From the NCBI GenBank assembly GCA_045837725.1, contig JBEWZL010000208.1:186001-207465 (forward strand): DNA of 21,465 nt, in the 5' to 3' direction. The notes under the pieces were generated by a model, which was not told where the DNA came from, made no database searches, and saw only the letters and a program-made list of their open reading frames with translations. Below are positions 15,159-21,465 of the stretch, piece by piece (position 1 is the first letter of the stretch; each line of letters starts with the position of its first letter). The stretch is from Vermamoeba vermiformis (taxonomy: Eukaryota). The position numbers were made by a program, and so were the translations under genes.

Positions 15159-16959
15159 TTATTCAGTGACGACCATAAATCCATTTCTGCCACGCTGGTA
15201 CCTAATTACTGCGTAAATCAAACCACCCACGACAGCCAAACCAACAATGACCAAGAAAACAATCGCCCAAGTAGGCAAATCTGGATTCTCAGCGTTCGGA
15301 GCCGAATGTGGTGTGACGACTGCAGGCGAAGGGCGAGTGGAAGATGAAGGCGATTGTATGGGTGGATTTGATGCTATGGGAGCTGATTGAGGTGCTTTGG
15401 GAGGCGCAGTGCTCAATAAAAACTGCGCAGCAAGGCTGATCTGTTGCGCTGCAATGTTGATCTGGTTTTGAACCTCGTTCCAGTCTTCATCTTCTACTGT
15501 TTGATAAATGCCCGGCAGCACTGTCGAGCCGTAGCCTAATCGCAAACCTGGTGCTTGAAGGACGTGCTTGTACCTTATTGCCATAAAAAGAAATTAGAAT
15601 CCGTTTTGATAAGTTTGTGCACAACAAATTAAGAAAACACAAAGTAATAATTAATATGCAATAACTAAGGAGCTAATAATATTATTGTGCCCAAAGATTC
15701 GAAATTGAAACGGAATCTTAATCGATGTCGGATCCAGTTTTGTTGCTACAACAATGACTTACCAAGGTCGTTTAGGCAGTCCAGGACCGATGAATTGTCG
15801 TTCAGTTGACAACAGCTTCTCATTCAACGCATTGTTACTGGCTTGCTGTTCTCCGTCTTGTTGCATTGATTGGCTGATCTGGACAGATGCCGACATAAAA
15901 CTATCGAGCGCTGCAGTAATGCTCGAATAGTCGTAGCTATTAATTAATTATAGATTAATATATGCTTTTGCAATTCTGAGAAAGAATAAAAGTAATGGAA
16001 TATTTGTTCCGGGCGAGGTGATATCACAAAATTATTTGTCGATCGAGATCTGAGGTCTTAAAGTCCTCTGATATTACGCTATTGCCATATCAATACGATC
16101 TCTTACGTCTTAGAAGCATTAGCACGCTCAATCATTTGCTGCGTCTTCGTCCAATAGTTCATCATATGCACCGCTGAGTTGGTGTAATTCATCGGCACTA
16201 TTTCTTTGTCCGCGTACACAAGACCCAAATACCCGAACAATTTTGACAAAGCCTGGCAAGCCAAGTGCATTAGTATATTATTAAAGGCCGCGCTATGATT
16301 ATACACGTACCAAATGATTGTGGAAGTACGGGTCTCCGAACTGTGTCATCCAGTACAAACTGTCGTACGCGCTGTGATACACGCCGTACGCACCGCGCAA
16401 TTGCAAGTCTATTTAAATAGCGTTAATATCGTTAAGAATATGGTATGAATTATTTAACGGTACCTGCTGAAGCGACACCCAAGTGGTCCAAGAAAGCAGT
16501 GTAATCGGAGCCTGATCCGAGCACGTGACAATCACCGTCCCATGTGTTGTTGCCACCAAAGAACGGCTGAAATACAGTTAGATACTAGTTGCACAATATG
16601 ACTATATAAATATTGTTGATCTTACCGTGCCATCGACGTCGTTGATCTTGGCAGCCGCAGCAATAATTTCTTGTTGCAATGAAGGTGTGGAGCCGCACGA
16701 TAAGGCTATTAATTAATATTACAATCTGTTCCACTTATAACTATTATTGCTTACCTTTACCAGTGACAGCGCTGTCAACCTAATTATAACATGTTAGATG
16801 TAAAGATTCGCATTAAAATATCGATGATCTAGATCTGAGCACACATACATTGAAGTAAGCGACGGCCTTGGCGAGCATATCATTCGAATGACGCTCAACA
16901 AACGCAGTGCTGCCTAAGAGAGCATATTCCTCGCCGTCCCAGCTGCAGAAAATAATGTC
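15159..16959 (-). CDS. Glutamate carboxypeptidase II / transferrin-receptor-like M28 metallopeptidase, 3' part only
   Basis: Motifs IIFCSWDGEEYALLGST, AVAYFN|VDSAV, LGSGSDYTAFLDHLGV, YGVYHSAYD and FGDP; dimerisation-domain segment YKHVLQAPG..GY...LPGI; then a Pro/Ser linker and a C-terminal TM helix. No start codon or 5' exons are present in the window. Confidence 0.92.
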
Positions 16960-17013
16960 CTACAAACACAGATCAGACTCGATCAGTTGCTCGATAATGA
17001 CACGCGCGACACG

Positions 17014-17033
17014 GGACGAAGTTCTACGTGCAG
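17014..17033 (+). repeat. Left terminal inverted repeat GGACGAAGTTCTACGTGCAG
   Basis: The reverse complement of 21446-21465 is GGACGAAGTCGTACGTGCAG (2 mismatches). The true end may include G17013. Confidence 0.9.
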
Positions 17034-17061
17034 CCAAACAACACTGGTAAAAATTTAAAGT

Positions 17062-19705
17062 TCAAACTTTAAACTCTGAGTACAATTTGTTTACAAGTTT
17101 TTTGACATACGTCTTTGAATACGTATTTTCAAACTTGTAATGAACCAAGTAGAATAATAAACTAATTCCAATTCCCTTTTGCTCAGTAAATATTTGTCCA
17201 AGGTATTGCTTGCAAAGTTCCAGATCAGGGTTACGTGGCTCCAACCAACTCATGTGCTTGTATGTAAATTCTCCATCTACTATAATCTGTTCTGCTGTTT
17301 TGAACTTCAATTCAGCAGTGCTAGACAAAATTGGCTTTGGCTCAATATGAATTGTATTGGCAAGTGACATGCTCTTGCCTTGAGATTGCACTCCTTGGTT
17401 AAAGAGGTACTGGAGGTGAGCAATAACCTGATCAGCCAATTCCATTGATATTGAGCCACTGTCCTGAGGAAAATTCTTGTTTAAGTACTTGTGCCAAGTT
17501 TCATTTGCAGAAGTTCCTTGAGAGTATTTGTCTTTTAGCTCAGCAATTGGAATGATGTCATCCACATAGTTTGCAAGTAGGTTCGACATTGCATGAGCCA
17601 CTCTTCCGTCAACAATAGGGGTTGTATGCAATTTGTCAATGTCAGGCAATGCTGGTTTACGTGCTCGCCTGACAGAATCGTTAGTTTAAACTTTAAACTT
17701 TGAAGTTCAATCTCCTTACAATGCACGTGAGTTAGCATAGTGGTCTGCCAATTCCTTTATTAGGTCATCACTTGAGCTTGAATGCACCAATGAATATTTG
17801 TTCAGCCAGTCTTGTAGTGAATGTGCCAAATTGTGGTCTTCCCCATGAATAGTTTTTGCAAAGGTGAGAGAAAGCTCATTCTTAGCCTTGTGATAGTCTG
17901 CTCATTTATTAATAAATCATGTGATAAGATTTAGACTGACCTGCATGCTTGTGATTCATAACTTGGTCCAATCGATGAATTGCATGCCACACATCTTGAC
18001 ATACTTTTGGTTCAGGGAGTGAAGGAAACAGCTTACGCCAACACTCTAACAATGAGTTCTTATCTATAAATGGTGAGTAACAGATGATTTAAGTAATGAA
18101 TTACCTTTATGTGAATTGTCAGTAAAGATATACTTTGTTCGAACCCCCGCTGTCCATAACTTGTGTAATTCTGATTGAATATGAGACCGCTTATCTGACG
18201 GAACAATTTTCGAAACAAGGACACAGCCATCCTCATTCAGTATTGTCAACAATGAAGCTTTCAGTTGGACCTGTAGAAAGTTAGTTACAAGATCTGTAAG
18301 TCTGAGATACCCTTACACGTGATTTGGCATCTTTGGACCATGCCGACAAATTTTTGACAACTTTGTAAGTGTGATCAATCCTTAAAATAATTTTGGTTCG
18401 CTGAATAACAGAGTCCGACATGCTCTTGAGATTATCATTGAATGTCTCAAAGGACAGTGAGTAAATGCCTTCAATAAACTTAGGTGTAGTTCGAATGATG
18501 TCATTTATCTGCAACTTTATCTTTTGCAGTTCATCTGGCTTGTTTTGCAAGCATTGGTACGCCTAATAACATTATTTTTATGGTGAAAACACATAGAGCT
18601 ACATACCACTTGGATACGGGACTCAAAGTGAGCCAGCCACAGTTGTTGAACTGTTTGTAAAATCTTATTGAAATTGAAATAGTGAGCAGGAGCAACATTG
18701 AAAATAAACTGAGCAAATCGCTTTGTAATAACTGTTTTCGGCAAAACAATTATGGAAGGTTCGGAATACGTTTTGTTATCCACAACAGACAAGGCAGTAA
18801 AATGAGCGTCATGGATTCGACAATAATATTGCGGCACTCGCAGTACAAAAGGCGCATCTACATCGAAGCATCGCTTCCTCTCCAAAAAGCCTTTCTTTGT
18901 CACATGACATTTCTGCGACACAGGTCAATTAAGTTTAAACTTTAAACTTTGAACTTACTCCTTTAATCTTGTTGGGGCAGTGTTCGGGAATGAAGTTCAG
19001 GGATGGTTTTTGATTTAGAGTTGAAGACAGCTGCAATTCAACAGTTTGGATAACCTCAGCAAAGTTATCTGCAAGCTTCATTATACAAGGAGTTCACTAT
19101 GCAACAACACTTACCAGCACTGGAGTTGAAAGAAAGAGAGGCCAGTTGCTCTATTAACGCTTCATGTTCAGCACAAGTTTCATCTTCAAAGTTCAAACTT
19201 TGATGTTTGAGTTCATTTTTTTGTGTTCGTTGCTCAACACTGGATGTCTCTTCTTTTATGCCCAAATCAGGTGCAAGACAAGGCTCATGCTGCAGTGCCT
19301 CCACTACTTTAGCAATATGCATAATTAGACCAATCTAGTGTACACCAAATGATGGGTAGAACTTGCCTTTTTTGGGTTTTGACCTCGAATGAGATTGTTT
19401 TTCGGAAAACCGCTCAAAATTGTCTTGTAGAGTTCGTTTTTTTCCTTCATTCGCATCTGTTCAAATGGTTAACTTCAAACTTTAATATATAAATTTTATT
19501 TGGTACCTTTATGCATTCGTTTATGGTGCCTTTTTAAATCTGCGGCTAGATTTGAATTGTACGAGCAGTTATCTTCGCGACACACCAGCGATTGCTTCGG
19601 CGCTCCTTTGGCTCCAACCTTTCGTAGCAAAAAGCATCTATAAATTGATGTGCTCTTTGCCAAGCACAGCGTTATGTCTAACTCGTCGTTCTCTTGTGTG
19701 GTCAT
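17062..19705 (-). CDS. DDE transposase, ~738 aa, 10 exons, with N-terminal C2H2 finger and a Cys-rich (DUF6729-like) domain
   Basis: Exons 19705-19507, 19456-19367, 19306-19115, 19068-18959, 18912-18607, 18562-18317, 18270-18105, 18063-17941, 17897-17720, 17668-17062 total 2217 nt in frame. Motifs: CREDNC...LKRHHKRMH; CP..C...RCFDVD...YYCRIH; LRIDHTYKVVK (D1); FTDN (D2); QDVWHAIHR; GTSANETWHKYLN (E). Confidence 0.88.
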
Positions 19706-19768
19706 TGACCGTAAAAAAATATTATTAGTGTGCTAATTTTGTGATTCGCGTTACCACTCGTCATTGCA
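19706..19768. promoter_or_regulatory. Putative minimal bidirectional promoter of the transposon
   Basis: 63 bp lie between the divergent predicted ATGs at 19705 (-) and 19769 (+). Inferred from position only. Confidence 0.5.
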
Positions 19769-21390
19769 ATGGCAGAGAAGAGCTCTGCAAAGCGTGCCCG
19801 TAGTCAGGAGGAAGGTGAAGAGTCAGGTAAGCATTTCAAAGTAATAATTCGGCAACGGGAGTATTGAATCTAATTTTTCAGATAAAGACCAACAAAAACG
19901 CCGAAAGGTTAACAATGACGATTCAAGTAAGCATAATAAATCTGCTGGGTGCAATGTATTATTTGTTGAAAATATTTGCACGAGCACAACTAATACAAAC
20001 GTGGTTAGGTTCTGGGTCGGATGAGGAAAACGATGAGGCCAACGACTGTAAGTACCAAAACATTACTATATATATTTAATTATGGCCACATTATATTCGA
20101 ACAATTATTATTATCAGCGCCATGCTATATTAAAAATTAGGCTGTTTGTTTTCATAACGGTAAAATTAATTAATAGTACCTGTTCTCGAATTAAATATTT
20201 ACGCTAAGTTTAAACTTCAAACTTTTAACTTCAAATTTAGTGAAAGTGGGCACGTTTGTTGCAGTAAATTTACCGAATGGGTTCCGATTTGCCAAAATTA
20301 AGAAAGCCAATCGCGTCACGCCTATCGTTAAACTGCTGAAGGTAGCGTAATTTTAAATAATGTTAATGGTTAAGTTTTAATTGCAAATGAAAACAGTTCA
20401 CCTCCGAGATCTTCAATAAAGGGAGCTACTATTCTCTTCAAAAAACAGATAAGAAAATTGCTCGTGCTGACGTGATTAAAGAAATTGAAGTTTCGTTTGA
20501 TGAGCACGAATCAAAATTTTTTGTCGCGAACGAAGTTATTACTGAGATCAGCAGGCGTAAGTAAACAGTATTAATTGTCACAACGGCTAATTATCGTTCT
20601 GCAGTTACGAATCCGACACAGACACCAGGGCCTCTGCAAAATCTTGATGTGGCAGAAGACAACAAGCAATCAACTGATTTCGATCTGGATTTTTCGCGCC
20701 CAAAACAAAAAAAGAAGGCGTCTTTATTACCAGAAGGATGTAAGTGGGCTCATATTATATAGTTAAATATTTATTTAACAATAATTCAGTCTCTGTGAAA
20801 ACTTCCGATCAGATCGGACTCGCGCACCAAGATGTTTGGAAAGGAGCGAATAGTAAGTAGTTTAAAGTTTGAACTTTAAACTTTACAATTAATTGTTTGA
20901 CACGGTTTAGATTCGGAGCGACTCGGCTATCTCCTACGCTGGTTAAATTACAACAAATATTTCACTAGCTCTGCAGCAAATTCTGCCATATCAAAGCAAG
21001 GCAAAACTCCGACGCCTAGTTATTTGTATTTTAAGCTCCGTAAGTATTCCCAACAACAGATACGATTTTTTGCCTAACGATCCGATAACAGTTTATTACG
21101 TAATTCCACAAGACGAGACAAAGGACGAACAAATCGAAGGGGCTGTAAAAACATCAATTGTCACTGCGTTCAACGGGGAGGCAAATCCAGACAAATACAA
21201 GATCTACGGGAAAAAATACTTTTTGACGTCATTAATCCAGGATTATTTAGAAATGTCAGAGAACACATGGACGACTGCTGTGTGCCAGCTGATTAACAAA
21301 GGAGCAGTTTGGTTAAAAGAAACTGTACGCACTGACGATAATTTTATGTATGTAATTATTCCGCCGCTCGTGCCTAATAATAAAAAGTGA
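19769..21390 (+). CDS. Transposon accessory protein of unknown function, ~342 aa, 9 exons
   Basis: Exons 19769-19826, 19882-19926, 20009-20047, 20241-20341, 20397-20556, 20605-20739, 20790-20852, 20911-21039, 21092-21390 total 1029 nt in frame, mostly with GTAAG donors. NLS-like KRAR/KRRK, an acidic patch, and a beta-barrel-like segment LKVGTFVAVNLPNGFRFAKIKK. Confidence 0.8.
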
Positions 21391-21445
21391 GAAAAAACCT
21401 AAAAGTTCAAAGTTTAAACTTTAATTTATTATCTGATATTTTTTA

Positions 21446-21465
21446 CTGCACGTACGACTTCGTCC
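21446..21465 (-). repeat. Right terminal inverted repeat, abutting the window end
   Basis: CTGCACGTACGACTTCGTCC matches the left TIR at 18/20 positions. Confidence 0.9.

What the first reader, a model, noticed from the sequence alone, without database searches (positions are those of the whole stretch)
17054..21424. Heptamer arrays placed in the transposon's own introns and subterminal regions
Seen: eight arrays of TT(T/C)(A/G)AA(C/G) x2-4, several containing the palindrome AGTTTAAACT. Two are subterminal at both ends, five are inside introns of both genes, and one is in a linker exon. Several neighbouring arrays are about 540-740 bp apart. Known: transposase-binding repeats normally cluster subterminally. 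Inference: the introns may carry binding sites for the C2H2 transposase or the accessory protein along the whole element, reminiscent of VANC-bound motifs spread through non-coding parts of Arabidopsis VANDAL Mutator elements (sequence-specific anti-silencing).
Basis: partly seen in the sequence, partly recalled or inferred. Interest (0 to 1): 0.85.

Follow-up and report, generated by a model that had tools for sequence, protein, structure and literature searches.

The report
Transposon end-motif arrays inside its introns
A small two-gene DNA transposon repeats the 7-base motif of its inverted ends inside five of its own tiny introns, partly at the same places as in a distant relative, so the introns probably serve as docking sites for the element's own proteins.

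Summary
All chains of two or more TTYRAAS heptamers in the 21.5-kb window lie inside one 4,453-bp element: 21 matches on both strands against 0.07 expected, and none in 17 kb of host DNA. It has 67-nt terminal inverted repeats, 17014-17080 and 21399-21465. Each has an outer terminal motif found only at the ends and an inner heptamer array. My in-frame GT..AG gene models place five arrays in 5 of 17 introns, one in a transposase exon and two in the repeats. A related family from metagenomes (L001/L002, 44-62% amino-acid identity) has the same heptamer arrays in the homologous transposase introns 4 and 9, just after the stop codon, and in intron 6. The rest of those introns does not align. So the arrays are conserved cis elements. 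Most likely they are reiterated DNA-binding sites for an element-encoded protein; I favour the single-C2H2 transposase. The VANC/VANDAL analogy is apt in layout but untested in function, and it differs in that this motif is conserved rather than fast-evolving. I found no expression, binding or whole-genome data.

The parts
17013..17080 (.). Left terminal inverted repeat: outer 21-nt terminal motif (17013-17033), about 20-nt spacer, inner heptamer array A1
   Evidence: Inverted repeat I1, 67 nt, 76%. The terminal motif occurs once in the window at up to 3 mismatches. Contigs of DNA run X1 branch at 17012/17013 into other flanks. The architecture is shared with L001.
21399..21465 (.). Right terminal inverted repeat; it ends at the window's last base, so the terminus may be cut by one base
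17054..17074 (.). Array A1: 3 perfect units in the left repeat; overlaps the last codons and the stop codon (17062-17064) of the transposase
17685..17711 (.). Array A2: 3 perfect and 1 imperfect unit, inside transposase intron 9 (17669-17719, 51 nt)
   Evidence: The homologous intron of L002 also has an array. No differences in the array in the X3 variant contig, against 3 in the rest of the intron.
18934..18954 (.). Array A3: 3 perfect units, inside transposase intron 4 (18913-18958, 46 nt), directly after the donor site
   Evidence: The homologous intron of L002 also has an array.
19185..19204 (.). Array A4: 2 perfect and 1 imperfect unit, in transposase exon 3 (19115-19289), a poorly conserved linker
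19474..19486 (.). Array A5: 1 perfect and 1 imperfect unit, inside transposase intron 1 (19457-19506, 50 nt); the weakest array
20209..20235 (.). Array A6: 2 perfect and 2 imperfect units, at the 3' end of accessory-gene intron 3 (20048-20240, 193 nt)
20861..20887 (.). Array A7: 3 perfect and 1 imperfect unit, inside accessory-gene intron 7 (20853-20910, 58 nt), just after the donor site
21406..21425 (.). Array A8: 2 perfect and 1 imperfect unit, in the right repeat, 16 nt after the accessory stop codon
17062..19705 (-). Putative transposase gene: 10 exons, 9 GT..AG introns of 41-54 nt, 740 aa. One N-terminal C2H2 finger and DDE-like motifs seen by eye; no Pfam family.
   Evidence: In-frame model. 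zf-H2C2_5 scores 20.7 bits, below the cut-off of 27. Relatives of exon 10 exist only as exon-sized metagenome fragments. tblastn to L001/L002.
19769..21390 (+). Accessory gene: 9 exons, 8 GT..AG introns of 48-193 nt, 342 aa, no known family
   Evidence: In-frame model. No Pfam hit in 3 exon stretches. No homologue found. In the X3 variant contig all 7 listed substitutions and the 3-nt insertion fall in introns 5 and 6, none in the exons.
19706..19768 (.). 63-bp spacer between the two divergent start codons; it holds no array

Best explanation
The heptamer arrays are double-stranded-DNA binding sites for a protein encoded by the element. I favour the transposase, through its single N-terminal C2H2 finger and flanking basic stretch. 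Each end has two parts: an outer terminal motif where cleavage would occur, and an inner array where the protein docks. The same docking array is repeated about every 0.55-0.75 kb along the element. It sits in the only places that tolerate it in a compact element that is 73% coding: its 41-58-nt introns, one long intron and a linker exon. Binding of an oligomeric protein to these sites would gather the 4.45-kb element and bring its ends together. It could also let the protein regulate its own genes. Shown: the arrays are element-specific, non-coding-biased, identical in motif to the inner part of the repeats, and kept at homologous introns in a distant family. Inferred: that a protein binds them, which protein, and what binding achieves.
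For: (1) Specificity: 21 matches against 0.07 expected, all inside the element. There are 0 chains in 17,013 nt of host DNA in the window, and 0 in 2149-6302 of L002. (2) Identity with the ends: the 67-nt terminal inverted repeat includes the array. The internal arrays match the end arrays at 84-96% over 22-26 nt (pairs I3, I11, I12, I13, I17). The outer terminal motif is absent internally. (3) Placement: 1,201 of 4,453 nt are non-coding. Five arrays lie wholly in introns and A8 wholly in the right repeat; A1 straddles the stop codon and A4 is exonic. That makes at least 6 of 8 non-coding, binomial P = 0.0064. (4) Arrays replace intron sequence rather than add to it. Introns with arrays are 46, 50, 51, 58 and 193 nt; introns without are 41-55 and 82 nt. 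(5) Deep conservation: L002 matches the transposase at 44-62% amino-acid identity. It carries arrays in the homologues of introns 4 and 9 and right after the stop codon, plus intron 6: 11 matches against 0.46 expected. In pairwise intron alignments little besides the arrays and the splice-site dinucleotides lines up. L001 shows the same terminal motif, spacer and array at its end. (6) A 95-99% variant in metagenome run X3 has 3 changes in intron 9 outside the array and 0 of 28 inside it. That is weak: P about 0.1 at 8% divergence. (7) The unit is its own reverse complement, as expected for a site bound by a symmetric dimer (sequence).
Against: There are no binding data. No RNA evidence confirms that the introns are spliced. 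Two RNA runs of the same species label gave 0 reads on the element, and their reads on the neighbouring host exon are only 90-99% alike. All eight arrays also lie in regions that would be transcribed, so an RNA-level role is not excluded. Array presence is not fixed: intron 6 has an array in L002 and in an X3 contig but not here. A5 is barely an array. Only one related family could be read as DNA, and only its transposase 3' half, so conservation rests on 3 homologous sites. Host-intron frequency was tested on only about 21 kb of host DNA because no genome is held.
Confidence: 0.5

Rival explanations
1. VANC-like protection. The 342-aa accessory protein, not the transposase, binds the arrays spread over the element and keeps it free of silencing marks, as VANC21 does on VANDAL21 in Arabidopsis.
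For: The layout matches passages of PMC5735166: VANC21 signal in introns, intergenic and terminal non-coding regions, and motifs in tandem at high density unique to the element. The accessory gene looks functional: in the X3 variant contig all 7 listed substitutions and the 3-nt insertion are intronic. Copies in run X1 show no variant branches over 2.3 kb, so the element was active recently.
Against: The accessory protein has no detectable family or homologue. VANC targets diverge quickly between related families, whereas this motif is unchanged at 44-62% transposase identity. VANC motifs lie in one orientation; this unit is self-complementary. The arrays are part of the terminal inverted repeats, which is a transposase-type position. 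No array lies in the 63-bp promoter spacer. Whether the host uses DNA methylation or RNAi is unknown.
Confidence: 0.15
2. RNA-level signal. The arrays act in the two pre-mRNAs as binding sites for a splicing or retention factor. That would allow regulated intron retention, for example a truncated finger-only protein if transposase intron 1 is kept.
For: All eight arrays lie inside the two predicted transcription units: 5 in introns, 1 in an exon and 2 at the 3' ends. Because the unit is self-complementary, both oppositely oriented transcripts carry the same motif. Some arrays abut donor sites or overlap branch-point-like sequence.
Against: The arrays belong to the terminal inverted repeats, a DNA-level feature. 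Seven array-bearing stretches fold no better than shuffles, with z from -1.81 to +0.90, like 3 array-free introns. Host introns in the window have no such arrays. No known RNA family matches.
Confidence: 0.12
3. No function of their own. The arrays are slippage-prone or conversion-prone copies of the end motif, seeded into introns during gap repair and tolerated there. Alternatively they are sites for a host factor.
For: Arrays come and go between relatives, as with intron 6. Unit number varies from 2 to 4. An X3 contig changes sequence exactly at an array border.
Against: Neutral 20-28-nt tracts should not persist at homologous introns when the transposase has diverged to 44-62% and the surrounding intron sequence no longer aligns. 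The arrays stay short, with no expansions.
Confidence: 0.1
4. Intron-creating inserts. The array-bearing introns arose by insertion of a tiny array-carrying sequence, introner-like or a solo end of a nested copy.
For: P0002, a 65%-identical fragment, reads from the exon-10 homologue straight into an array-like tail. P0005 and P0009 end at the same place. This suggests an extra array-bearing intron that this element lacks.
Against: Array introns are no longer than array-free ones, apart from the 193-nt intron. They share nothing but the array. The terminal motif is absent beside internal arrays. Two array introns are at positions shared with family B, so they are old. No arrays occur in host DNA.
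Confidence: 0.05

Closest known systems
VANDAL21/VANDAL6 with VANC anti-silencing proteins (Arabidopsis Mutator-like elements; PMC5735166 and PMC10398659, passages read)
   Same: A short motif, in tandem, accumulates in the element's own introns, intergenic and terminal non-coding regions. High motif density is unique to the element. The element encodes an extra protein beside the transposase.
   Different: Here the motif is a self-complementary 7-mer that is also the inner part of 67-nt terminal inverted repeats. It is conserved between families, where VANC motifs diverge rapidly. Arrays are 2-4 units inside 46-58-nt introns. The accessory protein shows no family, and no binding or methylation data exist. 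That VANDALs lack terminal inverted repeats is recalled, not checked. Supplementary figures of the 2017 paper, which map motifs on copies, could not be seen.
Subterminal transposase-binding repeats of cut-and-paste transposons (Ac/Ds, En/Spm, Hermes, Muta1; recalled general knowledge, papers seen only as search listings)
   Same: Short motifs reiterated just inside the terminal inverted repeats, distinct from the cleaved tip. Arrays A1 and A8 fit this exactly, and family B keeps the same two-part end.
   Different: Those repeats are confined to the first few hundred bases. Here 6 of 8 arrays lie more than 600 bp from either end and are hosted in introns.
Internal transpositional enhancer of phage Mu
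   Same: An internal set of transposase-binding sites, far from the ends, that helps assemble the complex joining both ends.
   Different: That is a bacterial virus with a single enhancer region and no introns. Here there are many dispersed arrays of the end-type motif.

Membership tests
VANC-type sequence-specific anti-silencing system | Target motif arrayed in the element's introns, intergenic and terminal non-coding regions | tested here: met
   5 arrays in introns and 2 in the terminal repeats. None lies in the 63-bp intergenic spacer.
VANC-type sequence-specific anti-silencing system | High motif density unique to the element in the genome | tested here: inconclusive
   0 chains in 17,013 nt of host DNA in the window and none in 4.1 kb of host DNA in L002. 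No whole genome is held.
VANC-type sequence-specific anti-silencing system | Target motifs diverge rapidly between related families, co-evolving with the protein | tested here: not met
   The same TTYRAAS units occur in family B at 44-62% transposase identity.
VANC-type sequence-specific anti-silencing system | Element encodes a VANC-family protein | tested here: inconclusive
   No Pfam hit at E up to 1 in three exon stretches of the accessory gene. No homologue of its last exon. The spliced protein could not be searched whole, and no direct comparison with VANC was made.
VANC-type sequence-specific anti-silencing system | Protein binds the motif and removes silencing marks | not testable with these tools
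   Needs EMSA, ChIP and methylome or small-RNA data.
Subterminal transposase-binding repeats of TIR transposons | Short motif reiterated just inside the cleaved terminal motif at both ends | tested here: met
   Arrays A1 and A8 start about 40 nt from the tips within the 67-nt repeats. The same is seen in L001.
Subterminal transposase-binding repeats of TIR transposons | Repeats confined to the subterminal few hundred bases | tested here: not met
   6 of 8 arrays lie 0.6-2.2 kb from the nearer end.
Mutator (MULE) or another named DNA-transposon superfamily | Transposase matches the superfamily's Pfam domain | tested here: inconclusive
   7 exon stretches of the transposase gave no transposase family at E up to 1, only a sub-threshold C2H2 hit. 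The exons are short, so sensitivity is low. The structure model of exon 10 was too poor to search (pLDDT 58.6). The Atlas gave nothing.
Mutator (MULE) or another named DNA-transposon superfamily | Characteristic target-site duplication length | not testable with these tools
   The right flank lies beyond the window's end. L001 and L002 each show one end only.
Introner or MITE-derived introns | The intron is an inserted repeat with copies in many host genes | tested here: not met
   There are no arrays in host DNA. Array introns share only the array and are not longer than the others, except the 193-nt one.

The most novel reading that the evidence does not exclude
The element keeps some of its mini-introns because they are slots for a lattice of protein-docking arrays, about one per 0.63 kb. 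An element-encoded protein would then coat or fold the whole transposon, for self-protection (anti-silencing or immunity against self-insertion) or for end pairing. This would be a second, independent invention of the VANC-type 'motifs in my own introns' strategy, in an unclassified transposon superfamily of a non-plant-looking eukaryote. It uses the end motif itself, and the motif is stable over deep time.
Probability: 0.2. Interest if true: 0.8.

Novelty: new variant of a known kind. Interest (0 to 1): 0.6.

Why it matters
Cis-acting sites of cut-and-paste transposons are normally thought of as the ends plus a few hundred subterminal bases. The only documented case I found of a transposon that spreads protein-binding motif arrays through its own introns is the plant VANDAL/VANC system. 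I found it with two literature searches and did not look further. A second case would suggest that introns of mobile elements can be maintained as carriers of cis-regulatory or architectural sites. This one is an unrelated, compact element with very short introns, with the end motif itself reiterated and its intron positions conserved between families. It would give a simple system to test that idea: two small genes, seven short well-defined arrays and one marginal one, and an element that looks recently active.

Tried and rejected
- **RNA holders:** no RNA holder was listed for the stretch.
- **RNA reads:** two RNA runs of the same species label (X16, X18) gave 0 reads on the element and 5 and 9 reads on the flanking host exons, at 90-99% likeness. 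They probably come from a diverged lineage, so they say nothing about expression or splicing.
- **Whole genome:** none is held, so the genome-wide intron control could not be run.
- **Transposase classification:**
  - Pfam on 7 exon stretches gave only a sub-threshold C2H2 hit.
  - HMMER against 1.84 billion representatives with exon 10 gave 9 hits. Eight are exon-sized fragments and one (P0006) is an internally repetitive protein that I regard as spurious.
  - Three word-based protein searches found nothing.
  - The Atlas gave no usable hit.
  - The AlphaFold model of exon 10 was poor (pLDDT 58.6), so no fold search was made.
- **More loci:** the first alignment was too loosely conserved for a scan. 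A smaller alignment gave L001 and L002. Protein and pattern scans of the prokaryote genome collection and the viral collection found nothing.
- **Other searches:** earlier findings of this scan held nothing. Rfam gave no match.
- **Ideas rejected:**
  - Internal arrays as solo ends of nested copies: the terminal motif is absent internally.
  - Stable RNA hairpins: z-scores are not significant.
  - Exon 3 as part of a long intron that would make A4 intronic: an 89-codon open frame and only 1 variant in the exon against 3 in intron 2 of the X3 contig argue that it is coding.
  - Regular ~630-bp spacing in L002 as a statistical finding: the observed choice of introns is the most even of 10 possible, so P is only about 0.1.
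Full report
**What is in the sequence**

The window is eukaryotic DNA of about 38% G+C with very short introns.
- The double heptamer TTYRAASTTYRAAS occurs 21 times counting both strands, always between 17054 and 21419. One hundred dinucleotide-preserving shuffles gave a mean of 0.07 and at most 3.
- Allowing one mismatch in 13 nt gives 20 matches: 18 in the eight arrays, one weak exonic site at 17299, and one outside at 2417. The expectation was 1.57.
- Single units are 24 within the 4,452 nt from 17014 and 15 in the 17,013 nt before it.
- Chains of two or more perfect units are 7 inside and 0 outside. The eighth array (19474) has one perfect and one imperfect unit.
- AGTTTAAACT is present in 4 of 8 arrays.
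- Written in the other phase, the unit is a 7-bp palindrome centred on the C/G, so an array reads alike on both strands.

**The element is larger than the finding's coordinates**

The longest inverted repeat in the region has arms 17014-17080 and 21399-21465: 67 nt, 76% complementary. Its outer 21 nt is a terminal motif that occurs nowhere else in the window at up to 3 mismatches. A spacer of about 20 nt follows, and then the array. The window stops at the right tip.

In the DNA run that probably gave the assembly (X1), contigs branch at 17012/17013 into at least two other left flanks. Depth inside the element is 620-930, against about 250-275 for the two flank contigs. A single 2,332-nt contig covers 17013-19344 without variants. 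This points to a few copies that are identical or nearly so, meaning recent activity. One caveat is that contigs drop rare variants and summed depth is a poor copy-number measure.

**Gene models**

I modelled two divergent genes separated by 63 bp.
- On the minus strand: a 740-aa protein in 10 exons (ATG 19705, stop 17062-17064), with nine GT..AG introns of 41-54 nt.
- On the plus strand: a 342-aa protein in 9 exons (19769-21390), with eight GT..AG introns of 48-193 nt.

All 17 introns keep the reading frame, but none is confirmed by RNA. Indirect support:
- Metagenome ORF fragments match exon 10 as a unit.
- tblastn segments on L002 start exactly after the homologues of introns 4 and 9.
- In a 95-99% variant contig of run X3 covering 20465-20864, all 7 listed substitutions and a 3-nt insertion fall in accessory introns 5 and 6, and none in about 290 exon bases. 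The record reports 8 other letters, so one is not listed.

The minus-strand protein has a single C-x4-C-x12-H-x4-H finger, scoring 20.7 bits for zf-H2C2_5 against a cut-off of 27. By eye it also has DDE-like motifs. No Pfam transposase family matched any exon, so I could not assign a superfamily.

**Where the arrays lie**

- A2, A3 and A5 lie in transposase introns 9, 4 and 1.
- A6 and A7 lie in accessory introns 3 and 7.
- A4 lies in transposase exon 3.
- A1 overlaps the last codons and the stop codon of the transposase.
- A8 lies 16 nt after the accessory stop.

Non-coding DNA is 1,201 of 4,453 nt. At least six of eight arrays fall there, binomial P = 0.0064. Introns with arrays are 46, 50, 51, 58 and 193 nt; those without are 41-55 and 82 nt. 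In the short introns the array therefore takes up about half of a normal-sized intron and does not enlarge it.

**Conservation in a relative**

HMMER over 1.84 billion representatives found only 9 hits to exon 10. Eight are exon-sized fragments of 89-188 aa at 35-65% identity, and one is a repetitive protein I discount.

A metagenome scan returned two loci of one related family, L001 (1,144 nt) and L002 (6,302 nt). tblastn identities to my transposase model are 44% (residues 200-478), 39% (480-538), 54% (540-658) and 62% (653-734) for L002, and 59% for L001.

L002 has 11 matches to the 13-nt pattern against 0.46 expected. All lie between 232 and 2148, and none lies in the remaining 4.1 kb of host-like DNA. 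They are placed as follows:
- in the homologue of intron 4 (232-258);
- in the homologue of intron 6 (870-882);
- in the homologue of intron 9 (1497-1523);
- directly after the stop codon (2129-2148);
- a two-unit coding match at 542 and a partial match in intron 5.

In pairwise alignments of introns 4 and 9, little besides the arrays and the splice-site dinucleotides lines up. Our intron 6 has no array but may hold a decayed one. An X3 contig also shows an array at that intron. L001 ends with the same terminal motif, a 31-nt spacer and the array.

P0002 (65% identity) reads from the middle of the exon-10 homologue into an array-like tail. P0005 and P0009 stop at the same point. This suggests an additional array-bearing intron in other relatives; I could not fetch their DNA.

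**Interpretation**

A 20-28-nt tract that stays recognisable at homologous introns, while the protein has diverged to about half identity and the rest of the intron is scrambled, is under constraint. It is the same motif as the inner part of the terminal inverted repeats, where cut-and-paste transposases usually dock (general knowledge of Ac, En/Spm and Hermes). The simplest reading is therefore that the internal arrays are extra docking sites for the same element-encoded protein. They sit in introns because the element is 73% coding.

A single finger with a basic flank, and a self-complementary unit, fit one protein or dimer per unit; this is inference. What multi-site binding achieves is open. 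It could be end pairing or compaction, autoregulation, or protection.

Passages of PMC5735166 report VANC21 on introns, intergenic and terminal non-coding regions, with tandem motifs at a density unique to the element. However, VANC targets evolve fast, and here the motif is stable and equals the end motif. I saw only passages of those two papers. Their supplementary figures, which map motifs on individual copies, were closed.

**Rivals**

- An RNA-level role cannot be excluded, because every array is inside a predicted transcript. However, array introns fold no better than shuffles (z from -1.81 to +0.90), no Rfam family matches, and membership in the inverted repeats is a DNA-level property.
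- A by-product of repair or slippage is hard to square with the deep positional conservation.
- An insertional origin of the introns is contradicted by their normal length, by the lack of shared sequence beyond the array, and by the absence of the terminal motif beside them.

**Limits**

- No genome is held, so the host control is only about 21 kb.
- No RNA from a carrier strain was found.
- Only one related family, and only its transposase 3' half, could be read as DNA.
- The spacing of 631, 634 and 628.5 bp in L002, and 634 and 1246 bp here, is striking. Given the available introns it is only the most even of 10 choices.

**Verdict**

The mechanism is inferred. I rate it a new variant of a known kind: motif arrays in a transposon's own non-coding parts, as in VANDAL/VANC, combined with classic subterminal binding repeats. 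It is of moderate to high interest.

Noticed in passing
window 16936-17041 and the left junction at 17013: The element sits a few bases inside the 5' end of a short intron of a host M28-type peptidase gene on the minus strand (exon 16813-16959). Run X1 also holds a contig that matches 16936-17013 with 6 differences and then continues with unrelated, exon-like sequence. Its depth is similar (275 against 249). It looks like an empty-site allele or a paralogue, so the insertion may be heterozygous or polymorphic.
   Followed up: partly
window 21465 (last base): The window ends exactly at the right tip of the element, one base short of the full inverted repeat. The assembly probably broke at this repeat, so the right flank and the target-site duplication cannot be read.
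   Followed up: partly
L002 232-2148; window 17054-18954: Array centres in L002 are 631, 634 and 628.5 bp apart. Here they are 634 and 1246 bp apart, the latter about twice 623, with the array-free intron 6 in between. The near-constant step of about 630 bp is unexplained and not statistically secure.
   Followed up: partly
window 19706-19768: Only 63 bp separate the two divergent start codons, so both promoters and 5' leaders must share or overlap a very small spacer. That spacer holds no heptamer array.
   Followed up: no
window 17062-17078: The transposase reading frame runs into the terminal inverted repeat. Its last five codons and the stop codon are encoded by array A1, 48 nt from the element's tip.
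   Followed up: no
proteins P0002, P0005, P0009 (relatives of exon 10): Three metagenome fragments end at the same point inside the exon-10 homologue. P0002 ends in a tail that an array would encode. This suggests an extra array-bearing intron in other families, meaning intron gain or loss linked to arrays. Their DNA could not be fetched.
   Followed up: partly
window 16500-16997 in RNA runs X16 and X18: RNA reads labelled with the same species as the assembly match the host exons at only 90-99% and carry fixed differences, for example at 16528 and 16531. The RNA therefore seems to come from a diverged lineage or cryptic species.
   Followed up: no
window 18271-18316: Transposase intron 6 has no array, but it aligns with the end of the L002 intron-6 array over a short shared stretch. 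It may be a decayed array.
   Followed up: partly
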